Source: Actinomycetota bacterium | Lineage (GTDB): Bacteria; Margulisbacteria; Marinamargulisbacteria; GCA-2716485; GCA-002719695 | Reading direction: 5' to 3' | DNA: 24,338 bases | NCBI GenBank assembly: GCA_002697535.1 | Contig: NZWE01000033.1 | Span: 16,983 to 41,320 of the forward strand | In this document: piece by piece, positions 3,554 through 23,416 of the stretch | Numbering within the stretch: position 1 is the first letter of the stretch | Layout: each line of letters begins with the position of its first letter | Position numbers and translations under genes: made by a program | Notes under the pieces: generated by a model | What the model was told of the DNA's origin: nothing | The model's input: only the letters and a program-made list of their open reading frames with translations | Database searches by the model: none

Positions 3554-4741
3554 ATGAATAAGATGAAAGTAAATGTTTTAGTTATTATTTTTTTGTTGGG
3601 CTTTTCAACAAGTTTATGGGCTGTTGCTGCAGAACCTGATGGAAGTCGTTCAGAATATGATGAAGCTGTTGAATTAGAGTCTCAAGATACTCAAAAAAAG
3701 GATGTTGTTGATACGCCAGAGACTAGTTTAGAACAACCTGTCGAATCGCTTGATACGTTTGATACGGATAATTCAAGCAAAACAGTTGTTAAAGATAATC
3801 GTTCTGATGATGCTACTGTTGATATGATGATGGCAGATGTTGAAGAAGTAAGTGTGGAACTTGATGATGATATTATAGAAGTTTTAGAAGAATATGAGGG
3901 TTTAATTAAACGAAAACAATTTACCAAAGCTAATGAAGTTCTAACTAGTATTCCGATTGGTGCTTTAAATAAAAATCAACGGCGGCAAAAGAAAATGCTT
4001 AATGTTTTTGAGAAAATTGCTGCTGATCAAGCTGAGAATGAGCGACAATTTGGTAAAGATGAATCGTTGGATCAATCTGTTATGAAAACAATAAAACGGT
4101 TACAACGTCAGGCAAAAGTTTATATTTTAGAAGGAAGAACGGTTTTACCGCGTGACTTGTTAATTCAATCTCTTTATTTAGATCGTAAAAATTATTTGTC
4201 GAAACAATTGTTAGATCGATGTTTACAGTTACCTTTAGGATCTTATCAAGTTGAAAATATTGAAAAGAAATATTGGAATAATTCTTTAATAGAATTAAGA
4301 AGTGGGTTTCCTTCAAAATCAGTTGATTCGTTACAAATGTTGGCTAATTTTGATCCTGAAAATCCAATGATTTTTGAACGTATGGGTTCAGCTTTTTATA
4401 TGTCTGGTCAGGTTAAAAAGGCTGTCGAGGCTTGGAAACGTGCTTTATATTTAAGTCCAGAACGAAATGATTTAAAAGAGTTTATTGTTAATGCTGAAAA
4501 AGAAGTGGAGCGACAAGAAAAACTATCAAAAGCTTATTTTGACAGTAAAAAGAAGAAAAGTGATACAGGATCAGTTCAATCTGATGTGCCTATGCAGGTG
4601 TTACGGGTTGTTAATGATTCCAATACAGCCTTTAGTTATGCTCAAGAAGTTCGTCAACAGTTGGGTAAAGGTGTTAATGTGGTTGTAGAAGAACTTGATA
4701 ATGGTAAATGGGCTGTTAAAGTTCCAATCAAAAAAAAATAA
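3554..4741 (+). CDS. Secreted protein with a signal peptide, a long acidic low-complexity region, helical/TPR-like repeats and a short C-terminal SPOR-like module
   Basis: The N-terminus MNKMKVNVLVIIFLLGFSTSLWAVAA is a signal peptide. Residues about 30-115 are D/E/S/T-rich. A TPR-like motif is present (MGSAFYMSGQVKKAVEAWKRALYLSPERND). The C-terminal sequence MQVLRVVNDSNTAFSYAQEVRQQLGKGVNVVVEELDNGKWAVKV resembles half of a SPOR beta-alpha-beta-beta unit. This is the first gene of a tightly packed operon. Confidence 0.75.
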   Translation: MNKMKVNVLVIIFLLGFSTSLWAVAAEPDGSRSEYDEAVELESQDTQKKDVVDTPETSLEQPVESLDTFDTDNSSKTVVKDNRSDDATVDMMMADVEEVSVELDDDIIEVLEEYEGLIKRKQFTKANEVLTSIPIGALNKNQRRQKKMLNVFEKIAADQAENERQFGKDESLDQSVMKTIKRLQRQAKVYILEGRTVLPRDLLIQSLYLDRKNYLSKQLLDRCLQLPLGSYQVENIEKKYWNNSLIELRSGFPSKSVDSLQMLANFDPENPMIFERMGSAFYMSGQVKKAVEAWKRALYLSPERNDLKEFIVNAEKEVERQEKLSKAYFDSKKKKSDTGSVQSDVPMQVLRVVNDSNTAFSYAQEVRQQLGKGVNVVVEELDNGKWAVKVPIKKK

Positions 4742-4750
4742 GGGGTTAGT

Positions 4751-6190
4751 ATGAAAAAAATAATTATTTTTATTCTTTGTTTATTATGTTTTTCACAGTG
4801 TTTATTTGCTGCATCAGATCGATATTTAATAGAAGATAATTTAACTGGGATTGCTCAGCAAACATTAGATGCTATGTTTGGAAAAAATAATTTTATTGTT
4901 CGTGTTCAAGTTCAGATGACAGATTCAAAATATAATGTTCGGTATACTAAAGAATCAAATCCGCAACAATCAAAATCAAAATCTAATAAAGAGGGGGAGC
5001 AAGTTTATATTTTACCTGGGGTTCCAGCTTTAAAAAATATTGCACCTGATTCTTTAAAACAGCTTCCTTATGATTCGGTTACAACGTTAACGGAACCTAA
5101 AATTAAACGTATTCTTGTTAAGGTTTTAGTGAATAAGTCTTACCCACGTAGTCAGGCAAAAAAAGCAGAAAAGGCTTTAAAAGATGTTTTAGCGATGAAA
5201 AGTGGTCGGGATAAAATTAAGATGGAATATACAAAATTTTATGAGGATCCTAACGAAAAATCTCAAAATATTACTATTTTACCAGGTCCAGAAAAAATTA
5301 TGTCATTAGGTAATTTGTTTAATGTTCTTATTATTTTATTATTTATTATTTTTATTTTTATTTATAGTCGCTATCAAAAGTTATTATTAGCAAAAGAAGA
5401 TTCATCAGATTCAGGGGGTCCTTCCATTAGTGTTAATCCTAACTTAGAACTTCCAGAAGGCTTAGGTGGAGGAAGTAATGGATCGGATATGAGTATTAAT
5501 ATGAATGCTGATGTTAAACGATATTTTGATTTTGTGACTCAAAATAATATTTCTGATTTTATTTTTCTTATTAAAAGTCAGAACTTAAAACCTGATTATA
5601 TTAGTTTAATTATATCGTTTTTAGCGCCTAATTTATCAGCTAAAATTTTAAATAGTTTGGAACCTAAGGTACAAGCTCAGGTTACAGTTTTATTAACTGA
5701 GCAACGGTTAGGAAAAAAAGATTTGTTGGATAAATTAGAGAAGAAGTTAAAATCTGATGTTGAATGTTTTGTTGGTGGAGATGATAAAGTAGCTGATCTT
5801 TCTGAATCATTATCTAATAAGCAACGAAAAGAAATTACACAATTTTCTAAAAAAATTAATCCAAAAGGGTATAAAAAGTTACGTCCGCATATGGTTTTGT
5901 TTGACGATATTCTTCTTTTAGATGATTCAGAGTTACAATTTGTTTTATCGGATTTAAACTTAGAACAACTTGCTACAGCTTTAGTTGGTGCTGATCAAGG
6001 GTTGTTTTCAAAAATTAATGATAATTTAACAAAAGGTGCCCGAGATATGGTTGGACAGTATTTAGAGCTAAAAAGTGAGTCTTCTAATGAATCTCATATT
6101 GAAAGTGCTCAAGATGCTATAATAAAAGTGTTAAGGAAGTTAGATGCTCAAGGAAAAATTAAATTGGCTGATAAATTAAAGACAGCATAA
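4751..6190 (+). CDS. Membrane-anchored FliG-like protein: signal/anchor, a periplasmic FliF/SctJ-like ring-building motif, one TM helix, then cytoplasmic FliG middle and C-terminal domains
   Basis: SD AAGGGG precedes the ATG. Residues 1-20 are hydrophobic leader. Residues 116-163 (PKIKRILVKVLVNKS...GRDKIKMEYTKF) resemble the end of the FliF periplasmic ring motif (IKRLSVAVVVN...RGD-V-V--F). The TM helix is at about 186-207. Residues about 257-472 align by eye with FliG-M and FliG-C. For example, MVLFDDILLLDDSELQFVLSDLNLEQLATALVGADQGLFSKINDNLTKGARDMV...AQDAIIKVLRKLDAQGKI compares with canonical MFVFEDILKLDDRSIQLVLREVD..DLALALKGAS.ELKEKIF.NMSKRAA...AQQKI...RRLEEAGEI. Confidence 0.8.
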   Translation: MKKIIIFILCLLCFSQCLFAASDRYLIEDNLTGIAQQTLDAMFGKNNFIVRVQVQMTDSKYNVRYTKESNPQQSKSKSNKEGEQVYILPGVPALKNIAPDSLKQLPYDSVTTLTEPKIKRILVKVLVNKSYPRSQAKKAEKALKDVLAMKSGRDKIKMEYTKFYEDPNEKSQNITILPGPEKIMSLGNLFNVLIILLFIIFIFIYSRYQKLLLAKEDSSDSGGPSISVNPNLELPEGLGGGSNGSDMSINMNADVKRYFDFVTQNNISDFIFLIKSQNLKPDYISLIISFLAPNLSAKILNSLEPKVQAQVTVLLTEQRLGKKDLLDKLEKKLKSDVECFVGGDDKVADLSESLSNKQRKEITQFSKKINPKGYKKLRPHMVLFDDILLLDDSELQFVLSDLNLEQLATALVGADQGLFSKINDNLTKGARDMVGQYLELKSESSNESHIESAQDAIIKVLRKLDAQGKIKLADKLKTA

Positions 6191-6199
6191 GGAGATAAT

Positions 6200-6979
6200 A
6201 TGAATTTAAATATTTTTGTAGGTCTTTTTATTGCTTCTTTAGCGATTTATTTAGGAGCTCCTGATGTTCGTAATGATATTACGGTTTATTTGCAGTTTAA
6301 TGCTTTTTTATTGGTTTTTCTGGGTACGTTTGGATCGACGTTAATTAGTACGTCTTTTGCTGATTTTCGTGGGTTATATGTTTTGTTTATTAGTTTGTTT
6401 TTTAGAAAGAAACGATTTTTGTCGCCAGTTGATGCTATTAAAATTATGGTGGATTTATCAGATCAAATTCAACATATTTCTCGACAATCTTTACCTGATA
6501 AAGTCGTTCATTTAAAGGATGCTTATTTGTCTAAAAGTATGGATATGGTTGCAGCAGGTTTGGATAAAGAGTTTGTTTTAGATGCGTTATATACGGATAT
6601 TGATGAACTTAGAAATAGACATTCTAAAAAGATTTCAGCTGTTCGTACTATGGGGTCTTTTGCTCCTATGTTTGGTATGGCTGGTACGGTTATTGGGGTT
6701 ATTCAGGTTTTAAAAAATGTTACTGATATTGAAAATATTGTTGCAGGGATGGCCTTAGCTTTGTTAACTACTTTATATGGTTTAATTTTTACATCTATTT
6801 TATTTCTTCCTTTAGCGAATAAGTTACAAGCTTTAAGTGAAGAAGAAGTGTTATCAAAACAAATTATTAGTCAAGGTACGGAAATGGTGTTAGATAAGGA
6901 AATACCGCTTAAAGTTGAAAAGTATTTAACTGCTTATTTGGAATCGAGTCAGCAAGATAATCTGTTTAAAAAGAAATAG
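6200..6979 (+). CDS. motA: Flagellar-type stator A subunit (MotA/PomA family ion channel)
   Basis: SD AAGGAG. Four predicted TM helices arranged 2 + long cytoplasmic loop + 2, which is the MotA topology. Conserved MotA_ExbB motifs are present: SFAPMFGMAGTVIGV in TM3 with its Pro, and ALLTTLYGLIFTSILFLPLANKL in TM4 with its Pro. Confidence 0.88.
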   Translation: MNLNIFVGLFIASLAIYLGAPDVRNDITVYLQFNAFLLVFLGTFGSTLISTSFADFRGLYVLFISLFFRKKRFLSPVDAIKIMVDLSDQIQHISRQSLPDKVVHLKDAYLSKSMDMVAAGLDKEFVLDALYTDIDELRNRHSKKISAVRTMGSFAPMFGMAGTVIGVIQVLKNVTDIENIVAGMALALLTTLYGLIFTSILFLPLANKLQALSEEEVLSKQIISQGTEMVLDKEIPLKVEKYLTAYLESSQQDNLFKKK

Positions 6980-6988
6980 GGGACCACA

Positions 6989-7684
6989 TTGCCAAAACGT
7001 AAGTTACAAGTTAACAAGCAATCTGGGGGTGATGGAGGTGCTAGTGAGGTTCAAACAATTTATGCTGATTTAGTTACTTTTGTTATGATGTTATTTATTT
7101 TGTTATTTGTTTTGTCTTATAATGACGAGAAATCACAGGACTTTATTACAGAACTACAAATTAAATTTGGTGAAGAAGTAGAAGATAAACAACAAACATT
7201 AACTACGGATGCGTTGTTGGTTAGTAAAATTAATCATTATATTAAAAAAGAAGATTTATCTGAGTATGCTCATGTTGTTGTTGATGAGTATCGGGTTAAA
7301 ATGATTTTAAATCCACCTATTTTGTTTGATAGTGGTAAGGTTGCGATTAAACAAGCTGGTAAAAAAGTTTTAGCGGGGGTTGGTGATATTTTTGATAATG
7401 TTGTTAATCCTTTGGAAATTGAGGGACATACGGATAATGTTCCTATTAATACAGAAGAGTATGCTTCCAATTGGGAATTATCATTTTTTAGAGCTTTTTC
7501 GGTTGTTAAATATTATATTTTTTCACGTGGCTATGATCCTGTTAGAATGACGGCGAAAGGATTTGGTGAATATCGTCCTATTGTTGATAATAGTACAGTT
7601 TTGAATCGTGCTCAAAATCGGCGTATTGAAATTAATGTTATTCGTATTACGGAAACAGATGATTTTGATGATGCGTCTTATTAG
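6989..7684 (+). CDS. motB: Flagellar-type stator B subunit (MotB; OmpA-like peptidoglycan-binding C-terminal domain)
   Basis: TTG start 5-6 nt after SD AGGGGA. There is a single TM helix with the invariant channel Asp in IYADLVTFVMMLF (D27, nt 7067-7069). The C-terminus has the OmpA_C signature EGHTDNVP...SNWELSFFRAFSVVKY...GFGEYRP...NRRIEINV. Confidence 0.9.
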   Translation: MPKRKLQVNKQSGGDGGASEVQTIYADLVTFVMMLFILLFVLSYNDEKSQDFITELQIKFGEEVEDKQQTLTTDALLVSKINHYIKKEDLSEYAHVVVDEYRVKMILNPPILFDSGKVAIKQAGKKVLAGVGDIFDNVVNPLEIEGHTDNVPINTEEYASNWELSFFRAFSVVKYYIFSRGYDPVRMTAKGFGEYRPIVDNSTVLNRAQNRRIEINVIRITETDDFDDASY

Positions 7685-9182: not shown

Positions 9183-9336
9183 TATTATATACCTTTTTTA
9201 TGATAATTCTTGGTCTTTTTTTTGGATTCTTATGATGTTTACACTGTTTTTTTTCTTCTTAAACATAAATTTTGTGTTTTGGGTTGTATTGTTTTTTGCT
9301 ATATTTTGCTTGATTTGGTATATTAACAATAGTTCT

Positions 9337-10017
9337 ATGGTTTATTCTTTGCTTTATATTGTTGCTTTTTTTACTTTATTTAATGCTTTTGGTTTAGCTA
9401 GTTTCGCTGAAGAAGGTGTGGTTGTATCTGATTCTGTTGTCACCTCTTCTGTTGTTGAGTTAGATATGTCTCATATGGATTTCTTCTCTAAAGACTTAAA
9501 GTCTTTAGAAACTACTTTAGAAGTCAAAAATTATGTGGATAGTCTTGATATTCTTGAAAAAGTTAGAGATAGAATCCAATTTCAGCAAAACCGTGTTATG
9601 TCTTCTTTTTTCCCTTTATCTTTAGAGGGATGGTCTTTAAAAAAGAAGGAAAGTATTATTGATAATGAGCTGGCTAATACAGATTATGGTGTTATTTTTA
9701 CACAAAGTTATTTTAATAAGCAGGGACATACTATCGAAATTAATGTTGTTAATGCTGAAGAATTAATTCGAGATTATAACGATTTATTTAATAACCCTGG
9801 GTTGGTTAGGGGGATGGGGAATACTCATATTATTGATCAAAAGGGATATAAGACAATTGAAACGGTTTTTGATGATGTTAAACACTATGAACAAAATATT
9901 GTTTTATCTAATACTGTTATTATGACTTTAATTGCTATTGGTATTGATGATGTTAGTATTTTGAATAATTTTATTGAATTTGTTGATATTGAAGCGTTAG
10001 ATTTATATTTAAATTAA
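9337..10017 (+). CDS. Secreted hypothetical protein
   Basis: The ORF is open from 9232. Starting at M36 (ATG 9337) gives a good signal peptide, MVYSLLYIVAFFTLFNAFGLASFA/EEG. The stretch 9183-9336 is needed as the divergent rho promoter/5' region. I recognise no family motif. Confidence 0.6.
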   Translation: MVYSLLYIVAFFTLFNAFGLASFAEEGVVVSDSVVTSSVVELDMSHMDFFSKDLKSLETTLEVKNYVDSLDILEKVRDRIQFQQNRVMSSFFPLSLEGWSLKKKESIIDNELANTDYGVIFTQSYFNKQGHTIEINVVNAEELIRDYNDLFNNPGLVRGMGNTHIIDQKGYKTIETVFDDVKHYEQNIVLSNTVIMTLIAIGIDDVSILNNFIEFVDIEALDLYLN

Positions 10018-20314: not shown

Positions 20315-21040
20315 TTAATTAGTTAGAAAAAATGACATTATTAAATCTGTAAGACTAATTAAAATAATTATTATTGTGGGCCATTTTTTAAATGAAATTA
20401 TTTTTATATTTTGATTTTTTAACCATTTGCTTGCGGCTGTAATCATGATTAATGTGCCGGACATTTCTAAACCATCTTCAAAAAACCAGCCAATGTTTTC
20501 TAATATGGAATTAGTATCTTTATATGAGTATGTTACGACTTCCATAATAGCTGATCCTGAAATGTAGACGAAGCCTGAAATAATTAAATATTTCATTAAA
20601 TAAGATGGGATTGTTGCTAAGAATCGAATAGAACTAAGTAGAAGAATTAATGCGAGTGATCCGTAAACCCACACCCAGATAGGAATATTAAATAGACCTA
20701 ATCCATAGATATTTAATGATGCATCATGAATAGCAAACCATTCGTCGCATGCTAAAAAAATAGCAATGTAACTGATAAGATGCCAATGTTTTTGGTGAAT
20801 TGTTACGTTTGATGCGATGGTTCTAAAATAACAACCTAGTAATATAAATAAGCCTGCAGAAAAAAGAGCAGTTATATTTTTTTCATAACCAAAGTAAAAA
20901 ATAGTTTTTAGTAGTGATTTGTTTTGTTCAGTATTATCTAGTCCAAAAGTTGTGATTACAGCTAAAATGTGACCGATACAAATGATTGTAAATAAGCTAA
21001 AACACCATTTTAATAGTGTAGATGATTTGATATTGATCAT
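20315..21040 (-). CDS. Polytopic integral membrane protein of unknown function (about 7 TM helices)
   Basis: 241 aa, highly hydrophobic with regularly spaced TM segments. Acidic motifs sit at TM ends (ACDEWFAIHD, FFEDGLEMSG). I recognise no family. Confidence 0.65.
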   Translation of the reverse strand: MINIKSSTLLKWCFSLFTIICIGHILAVITTFGLDNTEQNKSLLKTIFYFGYEKNITALFSAGLFILLGCYFRTIASNVTIHQKHWHLISYIAIFLACDEWFAIHDASLNIYGLGLFNIPIWVWVYGSLALILLLSSIRFLATIPSYLMKYLIISGFVYISGSAIMEVVTYSYKDTNSILENIGWFFEDGLEMSGTLIMITAASKWLKNQNIKIISFKKWPTIIIILISLTDLIMSFFLTN

Positions 21041-21412: not shown

Positions 21413-23416
21413 ATGTGGAAAGAAAAAGTAAGTTTTAGTGGTATAAGACGTTGTATTCAAACGAAAACCCTATTAAAGCCTGATAATAAGGGTCATTTTA
21501 ATACAGGTATGGAGTCTAATCGTACTATAGCAGCAACAAATATTCAAAAAGTTGTTAGAGGAAACGTAGATAGAGATAATATTAGTATGATTAGAAAGAC
21601 TAACGTTGTTAGAGACTATTTAGCTAAAGAATTTAATACTAATATGTTTAACTTATCTAAGAATTTATTTGCTCTTGCTAATATCTATCAACAATTAGGA
21701 GATAGAAATAAATTTTTAGACTGTTTATTTGATATTCAACAGTATCTGCGTTTTTCTATCGACTCATTTTCTAACTCTGATGTACCTACTGCTTCCACCT
21801 CTATGTCTGCCGTACCAATTGTTTCATCTTCTATATCTTTGGATTTATTAAAATTAGTAGACACTTATTTAGATATGGATAACAGATCATATGCTGTATA
21901 TTTATTAAACAATTTAGCAAGCTTTCGTAGAAACGATAGAGGTATTAATTTTCTTTTGGAATTTAAAAACAAGTTAGAAGATGTATCTGAAGAGGACATT
22001 TATTTTGATGCAAAAATACATACTATAAAATCCCAATTATATTTTGACAAAAATAATAAAGAAACAAGTCTTGTATCAGAAGAATATAAAAAATATTTGG
22101 AGAGACATCCAGCGGTTAATCTTAAGTTTGCTGAAGTATATTGTAAATTAGAGAAGCCGTTAATTGCTAAATGTATATTATTTTTATTAAAAGATCATCC
22201 AGATGATACTGTACGGGCAGATGTTGTAAATTTTTGTGTTCAATTTTATTCTGCTGATCCTTCTTTTTTTAAAGAAATTTTAGAAGAAAAAAAAGAGTTT
22301 TTATTAGACTCTACACCCAGGTATGAAATGGTTATTTCTCCTATTAATAACATTATTACTGTTTTGTCTGATTGTTTGGAATCTGGGGATGCTGTAGCTG
22401 TTCGTACTTTGTTATGTTTTGTTGAGCCGCTTTCAAGGATGTTAGTGGATTTAAACAGCTCTTATGACTTAGATATGTGTTTTACGGGGTCTATGAAAAT
22501 GCGATTAGAGAAGGGTCTAAAGAATGTAATAGGTGTATATCCTTCAGATAAGCAACTGACTCAATCATGTAAGATAGCTATAAAAGATCAATTGAGGTCG
22601 CAACTTTTAATACTTAGATATTTAGCAAAAATTCCTGGTGATTATTCTGCGTTATCTTTTTTATCTATACCTGATGATTTAGCTGATCGGATAAATAAAA
22701 AAGAGAATATTATGCTAAATTGGAACTCTGATTCTAACATAATAAATTCATTGCGTGATACTATTAATACTATTGAATTAGACCCATATTCTTGTCTTAG
22801 GCATAGTTTAGTTGTTGCTACTGGAGTAATAGATGACTTTATATTTGATGAATATTTATTTTCTGATTCTGATACATTAATAGCTTTTATAAAATCATGT
22901 GCTCAAAAGAGATTTTTTAGTGACAGACAAAGGGCTATTTTGCATGAAATATATAAAATTAGTATAGGAGAAAATAAATCTAAAATAGATTTTCAATTAA
23001 TTGAAACTGTAAAAGATTGTAACGTAAATATGGAATTAGCAAAAATTTTTTCTAAAATACGAGGTAAAGATTATGGTTTGAGATTATTTGAAAATATAAG
23101 ATCAGATATCGAAAAAAAATCTAAGAGTTATGGTGTGTTAGATAATCTTTATTTATTATACCAATTAGCAGATACTTATTTGGATTGTGGTGAACCTAAA
23201 GAGGCACGTAAAATAATTGATAAAGCTGAAAGCATTGAATCTCGGCTAGATCATCCTGATTTTAAGGGTTTTTATGAGAAGAAAGCTTTGGTTTATTTAA
23301 AGATAGGACAGATTCAGAAGGCCACCGATTGTTTAAATTATTTAAAAAATTCTGCTAATGGGAATATTAATAGTAAGGTTTTGGAGATTTTAAACGCTTT
23401 TTTAGAAGGGGCTTAG
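21413..23416 (+). CDS. Large soluble helical-repeat/TPR protein with an N-terminal IQ (calmodulin-binding-type) motif; candidate host-targeting effector
   Basis: SD GGGAG (21402-21406) lies 6 nt upstream of the ATG. There is no signal peptide. Residues 44-57, IQKVVRGNVDRDNI, fit IQxxxRGxxxRxx[hydrophobic]. TPR-like repeats occur near both ends (for example LYQLADTYLDCGEPKEARKIIDKAESI and KALVYLKIGQIQKATDCLNYLKN). Codon usage differs from neighbouring + strand genes. Confidence 0.75.
   Translation: MWKEKVSFSGIRRCIQTKTLLKPDNKGHFNTGMESNRTIAATNIQKVVRGNVDRDNISMIRKTNVVRDYLAKEFNTNMFNLSKNLFALANIYQQLGDRNKFLDCLFDIQQYLRFSIDSFSNSDVPTASTSMSAVPIVSSSISLDLLKLVDTYLDMDNRSYAVYLLNNLASFRRNDRGINFLLEFKNKLEDVSEEDIYFDAKIHTIKSQLYFDKNNKETSLVSEEYKKYLERHPAVNLKFAEVYCKLEKPLIAKCILFLLKDHPDDTVRADVVNFCVQFYSADPSFFKEILEEKKEFLLDSTPRYEMVISPINNIITVLSDCLESGDAVAVRTLLCFVEPLSRMLVDLNSSYDLDMCFTGSMKMRLEKGLKNVIGVYPSDKQLTQSCKIAIKDQLRSQLLILRYLAKIPGDYSALSFLSIPDDLADRINKKENIMLNWNSDSNIINSLRDTINTIELDPYSCLRHSLVVATGVIDDFIFDEYLFSDSDTLIAFIKSCAQKRFFSDRQRAILHEIYKISIGENKSKIDFQLIETVKDCNVNMELAKIFSKIRGKDYGLRLFENIRSDIEKKSKSYGVLDNLYLLYQLADTYLDCGEPKEARKIIDKAESIESRLDHPDFKGFYEKKALVYLKIGQIQKATDCLNYLKNSANGNINSKVLEILNAFLEGA

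What the first reader, a model, noticed from the sequence alone, without database searches (positions are those of the whole stretch)
4751..6190. FliG-MC domains covalently fused to a signal peptide, a FliF-like ring motif and a TM helix, with the FliM-binding and torque-helix signatures apparently altered
Canonical FliG is soluble and docks to the FliF C-terminus through its N-domain. In this protein the FliG N-domain is replaced. Residues 1-20 are a leader. Residues about 21-185 form a periplasmic segment ending in PKIKRILVKVLVNKS...GRDKIKMEYTKF, which resembles the end of the FliF/SctJ ring-building motif. One TM helix follows (about 186-207), then a Ser/Gly linker. By-eye alignment to FliG sequences from memory shows two differences. 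The FliG-M EHPQ motif, the FliM contact, reads NLKP (IKSQNLKPDYISLIISFL). The acidic pair of the torque helix (E. coli D288/D289) falls on Q-Y (DMVGQYLELK). This points to a rotor-like ring that needs neither FliF nor a FliM/FliN C-ring and that meets its stator through a modified interface. I recall a chlamydial FliF reported to carry a FliG-like C-terminus as a partial precedent, but that one has no adjacent MotAB.
Basis: partly seen in the sequence, partly recalled or inferred. Interest (0 to 1): 0.82.

Follow-up and report, generated by a model that had tools for sequence, protein, structure and literature searches.

The report
Membrane-anchored FliG rotor with own stator
A marine Margulisbacteria gene joins the ring-forming outer part of the flagellar base protein FliF, through one membrane helix, to the torque-receiving part of FliG, and sits beside its own MotAB stator, so it is either an unusual flagellar rotor or a small stand-alone rotary motor.

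Summary
ORF 4751-6190 (+, 479 aa) has five parts: a leader, a periplasmic domain, one TM helix, a Gly/Ser linker and FliG middle plus C-terminal domains.

- **Periplasmic domain.** It is more than a motif. The whole domain is a FliF RBM3/S-ring fold with a short collar insert.
- **Rotor-stator interface.** FliG-N is absent. EHPQ reads NLKP. All five canonical torque-helix charges are replaced (D288/D289 become Q436/Y437). The adjacent MotA has also lost its partner charges (R90 becomes Q91, E98 becomes P99). MotA varies together with the rotor across relatives.
- **Conservation.** About 50 full-length homologs exist, mostly Marinamargulisbacteria. The operon order is always TPR protein, fusion, MotA, MotB.

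Marinamargulisbacteria genomes encode FliF, FliM, FliN, the export gate, rod, L/P rings and hook. No canonical FliG was annotated in the four genomes surveyed.

Best reading (0.5): this is the lineage's membrane-anchored FliG, driving a flagellar-type motor. Rival (0.35): a free-standing rotor. Related fusions in Elusimicrobiota and other Margulisbacteria lie with MotAB, TPR proteins and giant ORFs, away from flagellar genes.

This is a new variant of a known kind.

The parts
3554..4741 (+). Secreted or membrane-anchored TPR protein (395 aa), the constant upstream partner of the fusion gene
   Evidence: It has an N-terminal hydrophobic leader and TPR_2/TPR_11 hits at residues 275-303. A homolog lies directly upstream of the fusion in all 28 related loci. 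TPR proteins also flank distant fusions in L036, L037, L040 and L041. The conserved C-terminal ~50 aa gives only a marginal SPOR hit in one ortholog.
4751..6190 (+). The fusion ORF (479 aa): leader, FliF-RBM3-like domain, TM helix, linker, FliG_M and FliG_C
4751..4813 (+). N-terminal hydrophobic leader (residues 1-21). It is a signal peptide or a signal anchor. A possible cleavage site is LFA/AS.
   Evidence: Read directly from the sequence. Cleavage was not tested.
4814..5245 (+). Periplasmic FliF RBM3/S-ring-like domain (residues 22-165). Secondary structure runs alpha-beta-beta, insert, beta-beta-alpha-beta.
   Evidence: The AF2 domain model has a core pLDDT above 90. Foldseek top hits are FliF S-ring structures 6scn, 6sd1, 7cg7 and 8z4g at E=3e-7 to 4e-6. 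Pfam YscJ_FliF_C matches 16 of 24 family members, best E=1.5e-7; this protein scores 22.1 bits against a cut-off of 23.8. hhalign and hmmsearch align it collinearly to E. coli FliF 238-268 and 367-434.
5006..5086 (+). Strongly conserved insert motif YILPGVPALKNIAPD...LPYDSVTT (residues 86-112), at the position of the FliF beta-collar loop
   Evidence: P89, G90, P92, P106, S109 and T111 are invariant. The motif resembles E. coli FliF 'GYPGGVPGALSNQPAP'. The monomer model has low pLDDT here.
5306..5368 (+). Single TM helix (residues 186-206), followed by RYQK
   Evidence: the positive residues on the C-terminal side fit an out-to-in topology
5432..5476 (+). Conserved cytoplasmic juxtamembrane motif VNPNLELPEG-GGG inside the Gly/Ser linker
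   Evidence: P230, E233 and P235 are nearly invariant. Function unknown.
5519..5770 (+). FliG middle domain (residues 257-340). NLKP (5582-5593) stands where EHPQ sits in canonical FliG.
5774..5779 (+). Gly-Gly hinge (G342, G343), conserved
   Evidence: Invariant in the family and aligned to the GG of E. coli and T. maritima FliG.
5855..6166 (+). FliG C-terminal domain (residues 369-472), including the MVLFDD hinge (5891-5908) and the torque helix TKGARDMVGQYLELKS (6029-6076)
   Evidence: Pfam FliG_C E=2.5e-19. Foldseek matches 1qc7 (rmsd 1.0 A, TM 0.85-0.95) and 8ucs_H, the FliG-C bound to MotAB (rmsd 1.1 A).
6056..6061 (+). Q436-Y437 at the positions of E. coli FliG D288-D289
   Evidence: the family pattern is Q(E)-Y/F
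6200..6979 (+). MotA-type stator A subunit (259 aa). Q91 (6470-6472) and P99 (6494-6496) stand at the positions of E. coli R90 and E98.
   Evidence: Pfam MotA_ExbB E=1e-26. The best PDB match is C. sporogenes MotA (8ucs, 6ysf) at E=3e-33.
6989..7684 (+). MotB-type stator B subunit (231 aa, TTG start). It has a plug, a TM helix with D27 (7067-7069, the E. coli D32 equivalent) and an OmpA-like peptidoglycan-binding domain.
   Evidence: MotB_plug E=3.9e-6 and OmpA E=9e-14. PDB 6ysf_A E=5e-33. The YADLVT motif is shown.

Best explanation
**What it is.** The protein is the FliG-type rotor subunit of an atypical flagellar-type motor of Marinamargulisbacteria, permanently anchored in the inner membrane. 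In canonical motors FliG-N grips the FliF C-terminal tail. Here that handshake is replaced by a covalent unit: a FliF S-ring (RBM3 plus short collar) domain and a TM helix.

**How it likely works.**
- The RBM3 domains oligomerise into, or join, the periplasmic S-ring. This step is inferred.
- That assembly lays out a 1:1 ring of FliG-MC under the membrane. This step is inferred.
- The MotA5B2-type stators encoded immediately downstream anchor to peptidoglycan and conduct ions through the conserved MotB Asp and MotA prolines. They push on the FliG-C torque helix. The domains are shown; rotation is inferred.
- The rotor-stator contact has been rebuilt on both sides. The canonical charge pairs are replaced by a conserved Q-Y/F-L-E-L-K helix on the rotor and a conserved Gln on MotA.
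- The always-adjacent periplasmic TPR protein is probably a scaffold for the stator or the ring. The TPR/SLR proteins of other flagellar motors work this way (from my own knowledge of those systems, not tested here).
For: - **Domain identities.** FliG-MC is shown. The FliF RBM3/S-ring domain is shown. Flagellar-type MotA and MotB are shown.
- **Hinges retained.** The Gly-Gly hinge and the MFxF-like hinge needed for FliG-C movement are invariant.
- **Operon.** Four genes are tightly packed with 9-nt gaps. The arrangement is conserved at 30-100% identity.
- **Co-variation of MotA with the torque helix.** In the marine clade the rotor has Q-Y/F and MotA has Q plus an uncharged residue. In L037 the rotor has E-E and MotA has R and E. 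In L031 the rotor has E-W and MotA has K and K. L027 and L003 are intermediate.
- **Flagellar genes in the lineage.**
  - SAG AAA071-K20 carries the fusion (L011). It also carries FliM (GGKG motif kept), FlhG, FliN, FliOPQR, FlhB and FlhA (L034).
  - Published KO tables list FliF, FlgC/F/G, FlgH/I/A and FlgE in three Marinamargulisbacteria SAGs. FliG appears only as 'check_length' or is absent (PMC6349859 Suppl. Data 2).
  - In the Trichoplax symbiont table that I infer to be Ruthmannia eludens, the only FliG is followed by the only flagellar-type MotA and MotB and preceded by a hypothetical gene. FliF, FliM, FliN, FliI, FlhA/B, FlgE and FlgH/I lie elsewhere (PMC6784892 supplement).
- **A flagellar-cluster relative.** One distant Margulisbacteria relative (P0111) sits directly upstream of motA-motB-fliK-flgE-fliM-fliN-fliPQR-flhBA.
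- **Fusions can work.** Engineered FliF-FliG fusions assemble rings; see PDB 8z4d/8z4g and the papers listed.
Against: - In all 28 related loci and the window (about 440 kb in total), no flagellar gene lies within 10 kb of the operon.
- The EHPQ FliM contact is lost, although FliM keeps its GGXG motif.
- If FliF also has an RBM3 domain, it is unclear how two RBM3 proteins would share one S-ring.
- Divergent members of the same fusion family sit with MotAB and TPR genes in plainly non-flagellar neighbourhoods (L032, L036, L037, L040, L041).
- Riflemargulisbacteria have fusions as well as a FliG annotated as 'reliable'.
- Filament, junction and cap genes were not annotated in the marine genomes. 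Their flagellar system may therefore not be a normal swimming organelle.
- The absence of a canonical FliG rests on other authors' annotation tables, not on my own genome scan.
Confidence: 0.5

Rival explanations
1. The operon encodes a free-standing, non-flagellar rotary module. The fusion self-assembles through RBM3 into its own membrane ring, a minimal MS-ring plus FliG ring. Its dedicated MotAB turns it, independently of FliF, FliM/FliN and type III export. It acts on the periplasmic TPR partner or, in other phyla, on giant surface proteins. It coexists with, or outlives, the flagellar system.
For: - The TPR + fusion + MotA + MotB combination recurs across very divergent subfamilies and phyla without nearby flagellar genes.
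  - 28 of 28 marine loci.
  - L040: TPR-TPR-fusion-MotA-MotB, followed by hydrogenase maturation genes.
  - L036, Endomicrobiales: a giant fn3 ORF, FecR, fusion, MotA, MotB, MotB, TPR.
  - L037: an ORF of more than 14,454 aa, TPR, fusion+TPR, FlbD, MotA, MotB.
  - L033: a 17,141-aa ORF near a fusion+TPR.
  - L041 and L032: MotA-MotB-fusion, with a response regulator in L041.
- The protein lacks FliG-N and EHPQ, the two contacts that tie FliG to FliF and FliM.
- The adjacent MotA co-varies with the rotor, as expected of a dedicated pair.
- The protein carries the FliF S-ring (RBM3) domain. From my own knowledge, not tested here, isolated RBM3 can drive FliF ring formation.
- Riflemargulisbacteria carry a fusion paralog (P0097/P0167) next to a CheY-like regulator, a FliG_C-only protein and a Kelch ORF of more than 3,700 aa. 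They also have a normally annotated FliG.
Against: - In Marinamargulisbacteria no other FliG is reported, and in the genome I infer to be R. eludens no other flagellar-type MotAB is annotated. Basal-body, rod, bushing and hook genes are kept, and these would need a torque source.
- One relative lies at the head of a flagellar gene cluster.
- No cargo or output element is identified in this window.
Confidence: 0.35
2. The operon is a non-rotating remnant or an envelope energiser. It would be left over from a degenerating flagellar system and kept for a Tol/Exb-like envelope-tethering or signalling role, with FliG-MC acting only as a stator docking platform.
For: - The lineage's flagellar gene set looks reduced. 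Published tables show no flagellin, FlgK/L, FliD, FliH, FliJ or FliE.
- The canonical charge pairs are lost on both sides.
- The operon has a housekeeping neighbourhood: hemL upstream and rho downstream.
Against: - The whole length is under strong purifying conservation, including the hinges that allow FliG-C rotation, the replaced torque-helix residues (Q436, K441 nearly invariant), the MotA prolines and the MotB Asp. This fits a working torque interface.
- The missing genes may be annotation misses. FliM was scored absent in the KO table, yet it is present in L034.
Confidence: 0.1
3. The fusion is an artefact: two genes joined by a sequencing or assembly frameshift. Alternatively, the C-terminal half is an MgtE-N/ARM-like domain rather than FliG.
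For: There is only a weak MgtE_N hit (E=0.031).
Against: - 51 independent full-length homologs of 467-500 aa come from SAGs, MAGs and metagenomes. A further 119 cluster representatives were found.
- FliG_C scores E=2.5e-19 and T. maritima FliG scores E=3e-22.
- All 13 best PDB fold matches of the full model are FliG, and none is MgtE.
Confidence: 0.01

Closest known systems
Canonical flagellar rotor pair FliF (MS-ring) + FliG (E. coli/Salmonella, T. maritima)
   Same: - The RBM3/S-ring fold.
- A TM helix just before the cytoplasmic part.
- FliG middle and C-terminal domains with the Gly-Gly and MFxF-type hinges.
- A torque helix facing a MotA/MotB stator with a plug, a conserved Asp and an OmpA-like domain.
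   Different: - One polypeptide instead of two.
- No RBM1/RBM2, no FliF C-terminal tail and no FliG-N.
- The beta-collar insert is about half as long.
- EHPQ is replaced, with a 2-residue insertion.
- None of the five canonical torque-helix charge positions, and neither MotA R90 nor E98, is conserved.
Chlamydiaceae FliF-FliG fusion (Bergeron 2016, PeerJ, PMC4768692)
   Same: It is a natural protein with an N-terminal leader, periplasmic RBM-type domain(s), a TM helix and a cytoplasmic FliG-like domain.
   Different: - As described in that paper, the chlamydial protein is about 330 aa.
- It keeps an SctJ-like RBM2 plus an unassigned RBM-like domain.
- It carries only a FliG-M-like region.
- It occurs in a non-flagellate with an injectisome.
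- This protein instead has the FliF-specific RBM3, both FliG-M and FliG-C, a dedicated MotAB and a TPR partner.
- I made no direct sequence comparison.
Engineered FliF-FliG fusions of Salmonella and Vibrio (PDB 8z4d/8z4g; papers listed)
   Same: FliF and FliG are linked covalently at 1:1, and the fusion assembles an S-ring.
   Different: Those are full-length FliF joined to full-length (or nearly full-length) FliG made in the laboratory. This one is natural, lacks RBM1-2 and FliG-N, and is conserved across a bacterial class.
Other 5:2 ion-driven motors with non-flagellar outputs (GldLM, ExbBD/TolQR, AglRQS, ZorAB)
   Same: In the rival reading, a MotA/MotB-family stator would drive something other than a flagellar filament.
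   Different: From my own knowledge, none of those systems uses a FliG torque ring or a FliF-type ring. Here the stator is of the flagellar MotAB type, not the Tol/Exb/Gld type (NCBIfam ranking).

Membership tests
FliG (flagellar motor switch protein) | FliG C-terminal domain (PF01706) with torque helix | tested here: met
   E=2.5e-19, 70 bits against a cut-off of 23.3. Foldseek rmsd is 1.0 A to 1qc7 and 1.1 A to 8ucs_H.
FliG (flagellar motor switch protein) | FliG middle domain (PF14841) | tested here: met
   27.8 bits against a cut-off of 25. It aligns to T. maritima FliG-M.
FliG (flagellar motor switch protein) | FliG N-terminal domain that binds the FliF C-terminus (PF14842) | tested here: not met
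   There is no FliG_N hit. Residues 1-256 are the leader, RBM3 domain, TM helix and linker.
FliG (flagellar motor switch protein) | EHPQ motif (FliM contact) | tested here: not met
   It reads QNLKPD with a 2-residue insertion. The family pattern is x-L-x-P/x-D/E-Y.
FliG (flagellar motor switch protein) | Charged torque-helix residues (E. coli K264, R281, D288, D289, R297) | tested here: not met
   The five positions read V, G429, Q436, Y437 and N. Charged residues exist only at neighbouring positions: K428, R431, D432, E439 and K441.
FliG (flagellar motor switch protein) | Gly-Gly hinge and MFxF-type hinge | tested here: met
   G342, G343, F384 and D386 are invariant in the family. MVLFDD spans residues 381-386.
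FliG (flagellar motor switch protein) | Score above the NCBIfam equivalog cut-off (TIGR00207) | tested here: not met
   78.2 bits against a cut-off of 226.7, matching profile positions 106-327 only.
FliF (MS-ring protein) | RBM3/beta-collar S-ring domain (PF08345) | tested here: met
   The 18 best Foldseek hits are FliF S-rings, E=3e-7 to 4e-6. Pfam matches 16 of 24 relatives, best E=1.5e-7; this protein scores 22.1 bits against 23.8. hhalign gives E=3.8e-4 to E. coli FliF 369-434.
FliF (MS-ring protein) | SctJ-like RBM1 and RBM2 (PF01514) | tested here: not met
   There is no hit, and the sequence has no room for them: the periplasmic part is about 165 residues.
FliF (MS-ring protein) | C-terminal cytoplasmic peptide that binds FliG-N | tested here: not met
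   After the TM helix come a Gly/Ser linker and FliG-MC.
FliF (MS-ring protein) | Assembly into a ring of about 33-35 subunits | not testable with these tools
   Only monomer models could be made. The collar-equivalent loop has low pLDDT, as expected if it orders only in a ring.
Flagellar stator MotA/MotB | MotA_ExbB channel domain with E. coli P173 and P222; MotB plug, TM Asp (D32) and OmpA-like domain | tested here: met
   (MotB D27 in YADLVT)
Flagellar stator MotA/MotB | MotA cytoplasmic-loop charges R90 and E98 | tested here: not met
   The positions read Q91 and P99. Q is present in 15 of 15 MotA genes of this family that sit next to the fusion.
Flagellar stator MotA/MotB | Score above the NCBIfam equivalog cut-offs | tested here: not met
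   MotA scores 150.6 bits against 340. MotB/MotS scores 134.8 bits against 264.
Chlamydiaceae FliF-FliG fusion | Architecture of RBM2 + RBM-like domain + TM + FliG-M only, about 330 aa | tested here: not met
   The architecture described in PMC4768692 differs from the one found here. No direct sequence comparison was made.

The most novel reading that the evidence does not exclude
The four-gene unit (periplasmic TPR protein, RBM3-TM-FliG-MC fusion, MotA, MotB) would be a self-sufficient ion-driven rotor, a flagellar motor core without a flagellum. It would need neither FliF, FliM/FliN nor type III export. It would be used in several phyla (Margulisbacteria, Elusimicrobiota and others), often beside giant surface proteins, to drive a still unknown envelope or surface process. 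It could also stand for the kind of rotor-stator pair from which, or alongside which, the flagellar motor evolved.
Probability: 0.35. Interest if true: 0.92.

Novelty: new variant of a known kind. Interest (0 to 1): 0.68.

Why it matters
- **Rotor design.** Flagellar motors are thought to need a non-covalent FliF-tail/FliG-N joint and conserved charge pairs between FliG and MotA. This lineage has replaced the joint with a covalent RBM3-TM link, and both sides of the charge interface with conserved uncharged residues. It is a natural experiment on what a rotor minimally needs and on how the rotor-stator contact can be rebuilt.
- **Ring stoichiometry.** The protein fixes the ratio of S-ring domain to FliG at 1:1 by construction. 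That bears on the MS-ring/C-ring symmetry question.
- **A possible new machine.** If the free-standing reading holds, it would be a new class of MotAB-driven machine. It would also be a candidate for a motor core that exists without a secretion system, which makes the 'motor first or export first' question about flagellar origins testable.
- **Annotation.** These proteins are currently labelled 'hypothetical' or 'FliG C-terminal domain-containing'. Automated pipelines therefore score FliG as odd or missing in these phyla.

Tried and rejected
- **Profile search of PDB sequences.** A profile of the periplasmic domain found no FliF, only chance hits with E above 0.8. Homology showed up only through Pfam on relatives, hhalign and fold comparison.
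- **Second homolog search.** A search with an alignment of distant fusions returned only 6 proteins, so it could not map taxonomy.
- **FlhA search.** The 120 best hits with a Margulisbacteria FlhA query showed no entry whose visible name read Marinamargulisbacteria. I first took this as a hint that flagellar genes were absent. Looking up hit P0190 then showed it is from Marinamargulisbacteria SAG AAA071-K20, inside a fliM-flhA cluster. I dropped the 'aflagellate lineage' idea.
- **Frameshift and MgtE alternatives.** Both were rejected.
- **SPOR domain in the TPR protein.** One of 7 orthologs hits marginally (E=5e-4, below the cut-off). I left this as a hint only.
- **Orthology by pairwise identity.** The window protein is about equally distant (22-29%) from all distant subfamilies. 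It cannot be assigned this way to the flagellar-cluster type (P0111) or the other types.
- **Literature.** Searches found no description of this fusion family. Terms covered FliG/MotAB/non-flagellar, FliF-FliG fusion, Margulisbacteria flagella, and giant genes in Omnitrophota. Only the Chlamydiaceae case turned up.
- **Promoter and terminator scan.** It gave nothing above chance. There were fewer promoter-like sites than in shuffled sequence.
Full report
**What is in the window**

The window has about 30% G+C and carries housekeeping genes: hemC and hemA (-), hemL (+), rho (-), tRNA-Thr and tuf (+). Between hemL and rho lie four + strand genes separated by 9-nt gaps, each with its own Shine-Dalgarno sequence:
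- a 395-aa TPR protein with an N-terminal leader (3554-4741);
- the 479-aa ORF of the finding (4751-6190);
- a MotA homolog (6200-6979);
- a MotB homolog with plug, TM Asp and OmpA-like domain (6989-7684).

The closest named relatives of the 479-aa protein come from Candidatus Marinamargulisbacteria single-cell genomes. The best is 80% identical, from SCGC AG-333-B06.

The cytoplasmic half is FliG.
- Pfam finds FliG_C (E=2.5e-19) and FliG_M above their cut-offs. MgtE_N scores only 0.031.
- T. maritima FliG-MC matches at E=3e-22 over residues 259-473.
- The 13 best PDB fold matches of the full AlphaFold model are all FliG. The C-domain superposes on 1qc7, and on the FliG-C bound to MotAB in 8ucs, at about 1 A rmsd.

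E. coli FliG taken from the genome record served as reference.
- EHPQ is opposite (Q)NLKP, with a 2-residue insertion.
- The five torque-helix charge positions K264, R281, D288, D289 and R297 read V, G429, Q436, Y437 and N.
- These are conserved replacements, not decay. Q436 and K441 are nearly invariant and position 437 is always Y or F.
- The Gly-Gly hinge and the MFxF-type hinge are invariant.
- There is no FliG-N domain.

- A model of residues 21-185 has a confident core of alpha-beta-beta, then a disordered insert, then beta-beta-alpha-beta.
- Its 18 best PDB matches are all the RBM3/collar S-ring of FliF (E=3e-7 to 4e-6, probability 1.0). SpoIIIAG and the SctJ protein PrgK follow.
- Pfam YscJ_FliF_C matches 16 of 24 family members (best E=1.5e-7). 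This protein falls just below threshold.
- Profile comparisons align the two halves collinearly to E. coli FliF 238-268 and 367-434.
- The insert between them carries the most conserved motif of the family, YILPGVPALKNIAPD...LPYDSVTT. It recalls the FliF loop GYPGGVPGALSNQPAP.
- RBM1 and RBM2 are absent.

The architecture is therefore: leader, FliF RBM3 with a short collar, TM helix, linker, FliG-MC. It is not an assembly artefact. 51 homologs of 467-500 aa share it, and an exhaustive profile search finds 119 cluster representatives.

**The stator has changed too**

The MotA here is closest to C. sporogenes MotA, the stator solved with FliG bound. It keeps the two essential prolines. The equivalents of E. 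coli R90 and E98 are Q91 and P99. Q is present in 15 of 15 MotA genes of this family that sit next to the fusion, and the E98 position is always uncharged.

Across more distant fusions the adjacent MotA varies with the rotor's torque helix:

| Locus | Rotor at D288/D289 | MotA at R90/E98 |
|---|---|---|
| Marine clade | Q, Y/F | Q, uncharged |
| L037 | E, E | R, E |
| L031 | E, W | K, K |
| L036 | Q, E | K, Q |

This co-variation is good evidence that the fusion and its neighbouring MotAB are a working pair with a rebuilt interface.

**Context in relatives**

- In all 28 related loci the TPR gene precedes the fusion.
- MotA and MotB follow in the marine clade.
- MotAB are not adjacent in six of the more divergent MAG loci, from lake, groundwater and other sources.
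- No flagellar gene occurs within 10 kb in about 440 kb of such loci.

**Why 'needs neither FliF nor FliM/FliN' is not established**

- SAG AAA071-K20 carries the fusion (L011). It also has a cluster of FliM (585 aa, GGKG motif kept, no CheY-binding N-terminus), FlhG, FliN, FliO, FliP, FliQ, FliR, FlhB and FlhA (L034).
- The KO table of Matheus Carnevali et al. (PMC6349859) covers three Marinamargulisbacteria SAGs. It lists FliF, FlgC/F/G, FlgH/I/A and FlgE, while FliG is only 'check_length' or absent. Their supplementary note calls Margulisbacteria motile by polar flagella.
- In the supplement of the Trichoplax paper (PMC6784892), one gene table appears to belong to the Margulisbacteria symbiont R. 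eludens. This identification is my inference; the other table carries the flagellin described for the Rickettsiales symbiont.
  - That table has a single FliG (peg.420), preceded by a hypothetical gene and followed by the only flagellar-type MotA and MotB.
  - FliF, FliM, FliN, FliI, FlhA/B, FlgE and FlgH/I are also listed.
  - No flagellin, FlgK or FliD is annotated.
- A distant Margulisbacteria fusion (P0111) lies directly upstream of motAB-fliK-flgE-fliM-fliN-fliPQR-flhBA.

The simplest reading is that this protein is the lineage's FliG and these are its flagellar stators.

**Why the free-standing reading stays alive**

The same fusion architecture occurs in very divergent forms. Several subfamilies are from Margulisbacteria and others from Elusimicrobiota/Endomicrobiales. 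They sit next to MotAB and TPR proteins in non-flagellar neighbourhoods:
- L040: TPR-TPR-fusion-MotA-MotB, then hydrogenase maturation genes.
- L036: a giant fn3 ORF, FecR, fusion, MotA, two MotB genes and a TPR protein.
- L037: an ORF of more than 14,454 aa, TPR, fusion+TPR, FlbD, MotA, MotB.
- L033: a 17,141-aa ORF near a fusion+TPR.
- L032 and L041: MotA-MotB-fusion, with a response regulator in L041.
- L038: in Riflemargulisbacteria, a CheY-like regulator, the fusion, a FliG_C-only protein and a Kelch ORF of more than 3,700 aa. FliG is scored 'reliable' in three of the five Riflemargulisbacteria genomes of the KO table.

Pairwise identities do not say which subfamily the window protein is orthologous to.

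**Comparison with what is known**

The only natural precedent I found is the Chlamydiaceae FliF-FliG protein. It has RBM2 plus an RBM-like domain and only a FliG-M-like region, is about 330 aa, and has no MotAB (PMC4768692). Engineered full-length FliF-FliG fusions form rings. No paper in the searchable library describes the present family.

The protein fails several defining features of FliG: FliG-N, EHPQ, the charge ridge and the equivalog score. It also fails several defining features of FliF: RBM1-2 and the C-terminal tail. I therefore file it as a new variant of the flagellar rotor kind, not as a plain member of either family.

**Verdict**

| Reading | Probability |
|---|---|
| Membrane-anchored FliG of an atypical flagellar-type motor with a co-evolved, uncharged rotor-stator interface and a TPR accessory | 0.5 |
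| Autonomous TPR-fusion-MotAB rotor | 0.35 |
| Non-rotating remnant | 0.1 |
| Artefact | about 0.01 |

Interest is 0.68. A whole-genome inventory of fliG, motAB and the FliF domains in complete Marinamargulisbacteria genomes would settle the main question.

Noticed in passing
L033 1-20087; L037 1-16306; L036 1-16646; L038 9216-21650: Distant members of the same RBM3-TM-FliG-MC fusion family lie beside giant ORFs together with TPR proteins and, in L036 and L037, MotAB. The giant ORFs are 17,141 aa, more than 14,454 aa, more than 2,988 aa (fn3/CarboxypepD_reg) and more than 3,722 aa (Kelch). No flagellar genes are nearby. Two preprints on giant genes do not mention FliG or MotA. This may be a non-flagellar MotAB/FliG machine linked to giant surface proteins.
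   Followed up: partly
L002 11447-12874 versus L001 11447-12875: In one assembly MotA and MotB are called as a single 475-aa ORF with MotA_ExbB and OmpA domains. In a near-identical contig from another sample the region is split. It is either a real MotA-MotB fusion or a long-read frameshift. I did not resolve it.
   Followed up: no
L034 2360-5671: FliM of Marinamargulisbacteria SAG AAA071-K20 is 585 aa. It has a long acidic C-terminal extension, a retained GGKG motif and no recognisable CheY-binding N-terminus. A ParA/MinD-type FlhG gene sits between fliM and fliN. The published KO table scored FliM as absent in this genome.
   Followed up: partly
L038 9216-12330; L041 11710-14024: CheY-like single-domain response regulators lie next to fusion genes, with a HAMP-HisKA kinase in L041. 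In L038 a 225-aa FliG_C-only protein lies directly downstream of the fusion. This hints that some of these rotors are controlled by phosphorylation.
   Followed up: no
PMC6349859 Supplementary Data 2: All Saganbacteria genomes in that table lack KO hits for FliG and FliM. They do have FliF, FliN, the export gate, rod, L/P rings and hook. They might carry the same kind of fusion in place of FliG. I did not test this.
   Followed up: no
window 4543-4741 (C-terminal ~65 residues of the TPR protein): The C-terminal segment is conserved among TPR-partner orthologs (...MQVLRVVNDSNTAFSYAQEVRQQL...NGKWAVKVP). It gives a marginal SPOR-domain hit in one ortholog only (E=5e-4, below the cut-off). It may bind peptidoglycan.
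   Followed up: partly
L012, L013, L014, L022 (record titles): Several MAGs carrying this Marinamargulisbacteria-type operon are deposited as 'Rickettsiales bacterium' or 'Actinomycetota bacterium'. These are probably taxonomic mislabels.
   Followed up: no
window 21413-23416 (+), 9232-10017 (+), 20315-21040 (-): Three ORFs have no clear family. One is a 667-aa protein with a single C-terminal TPR region. One is a 261-aa protein with N-terminal hydrophobic segments, between rho and tRNA-Thr. One is a 241-aa multi-pass membrane protein. I found no link to the operon.
   Followed up: no
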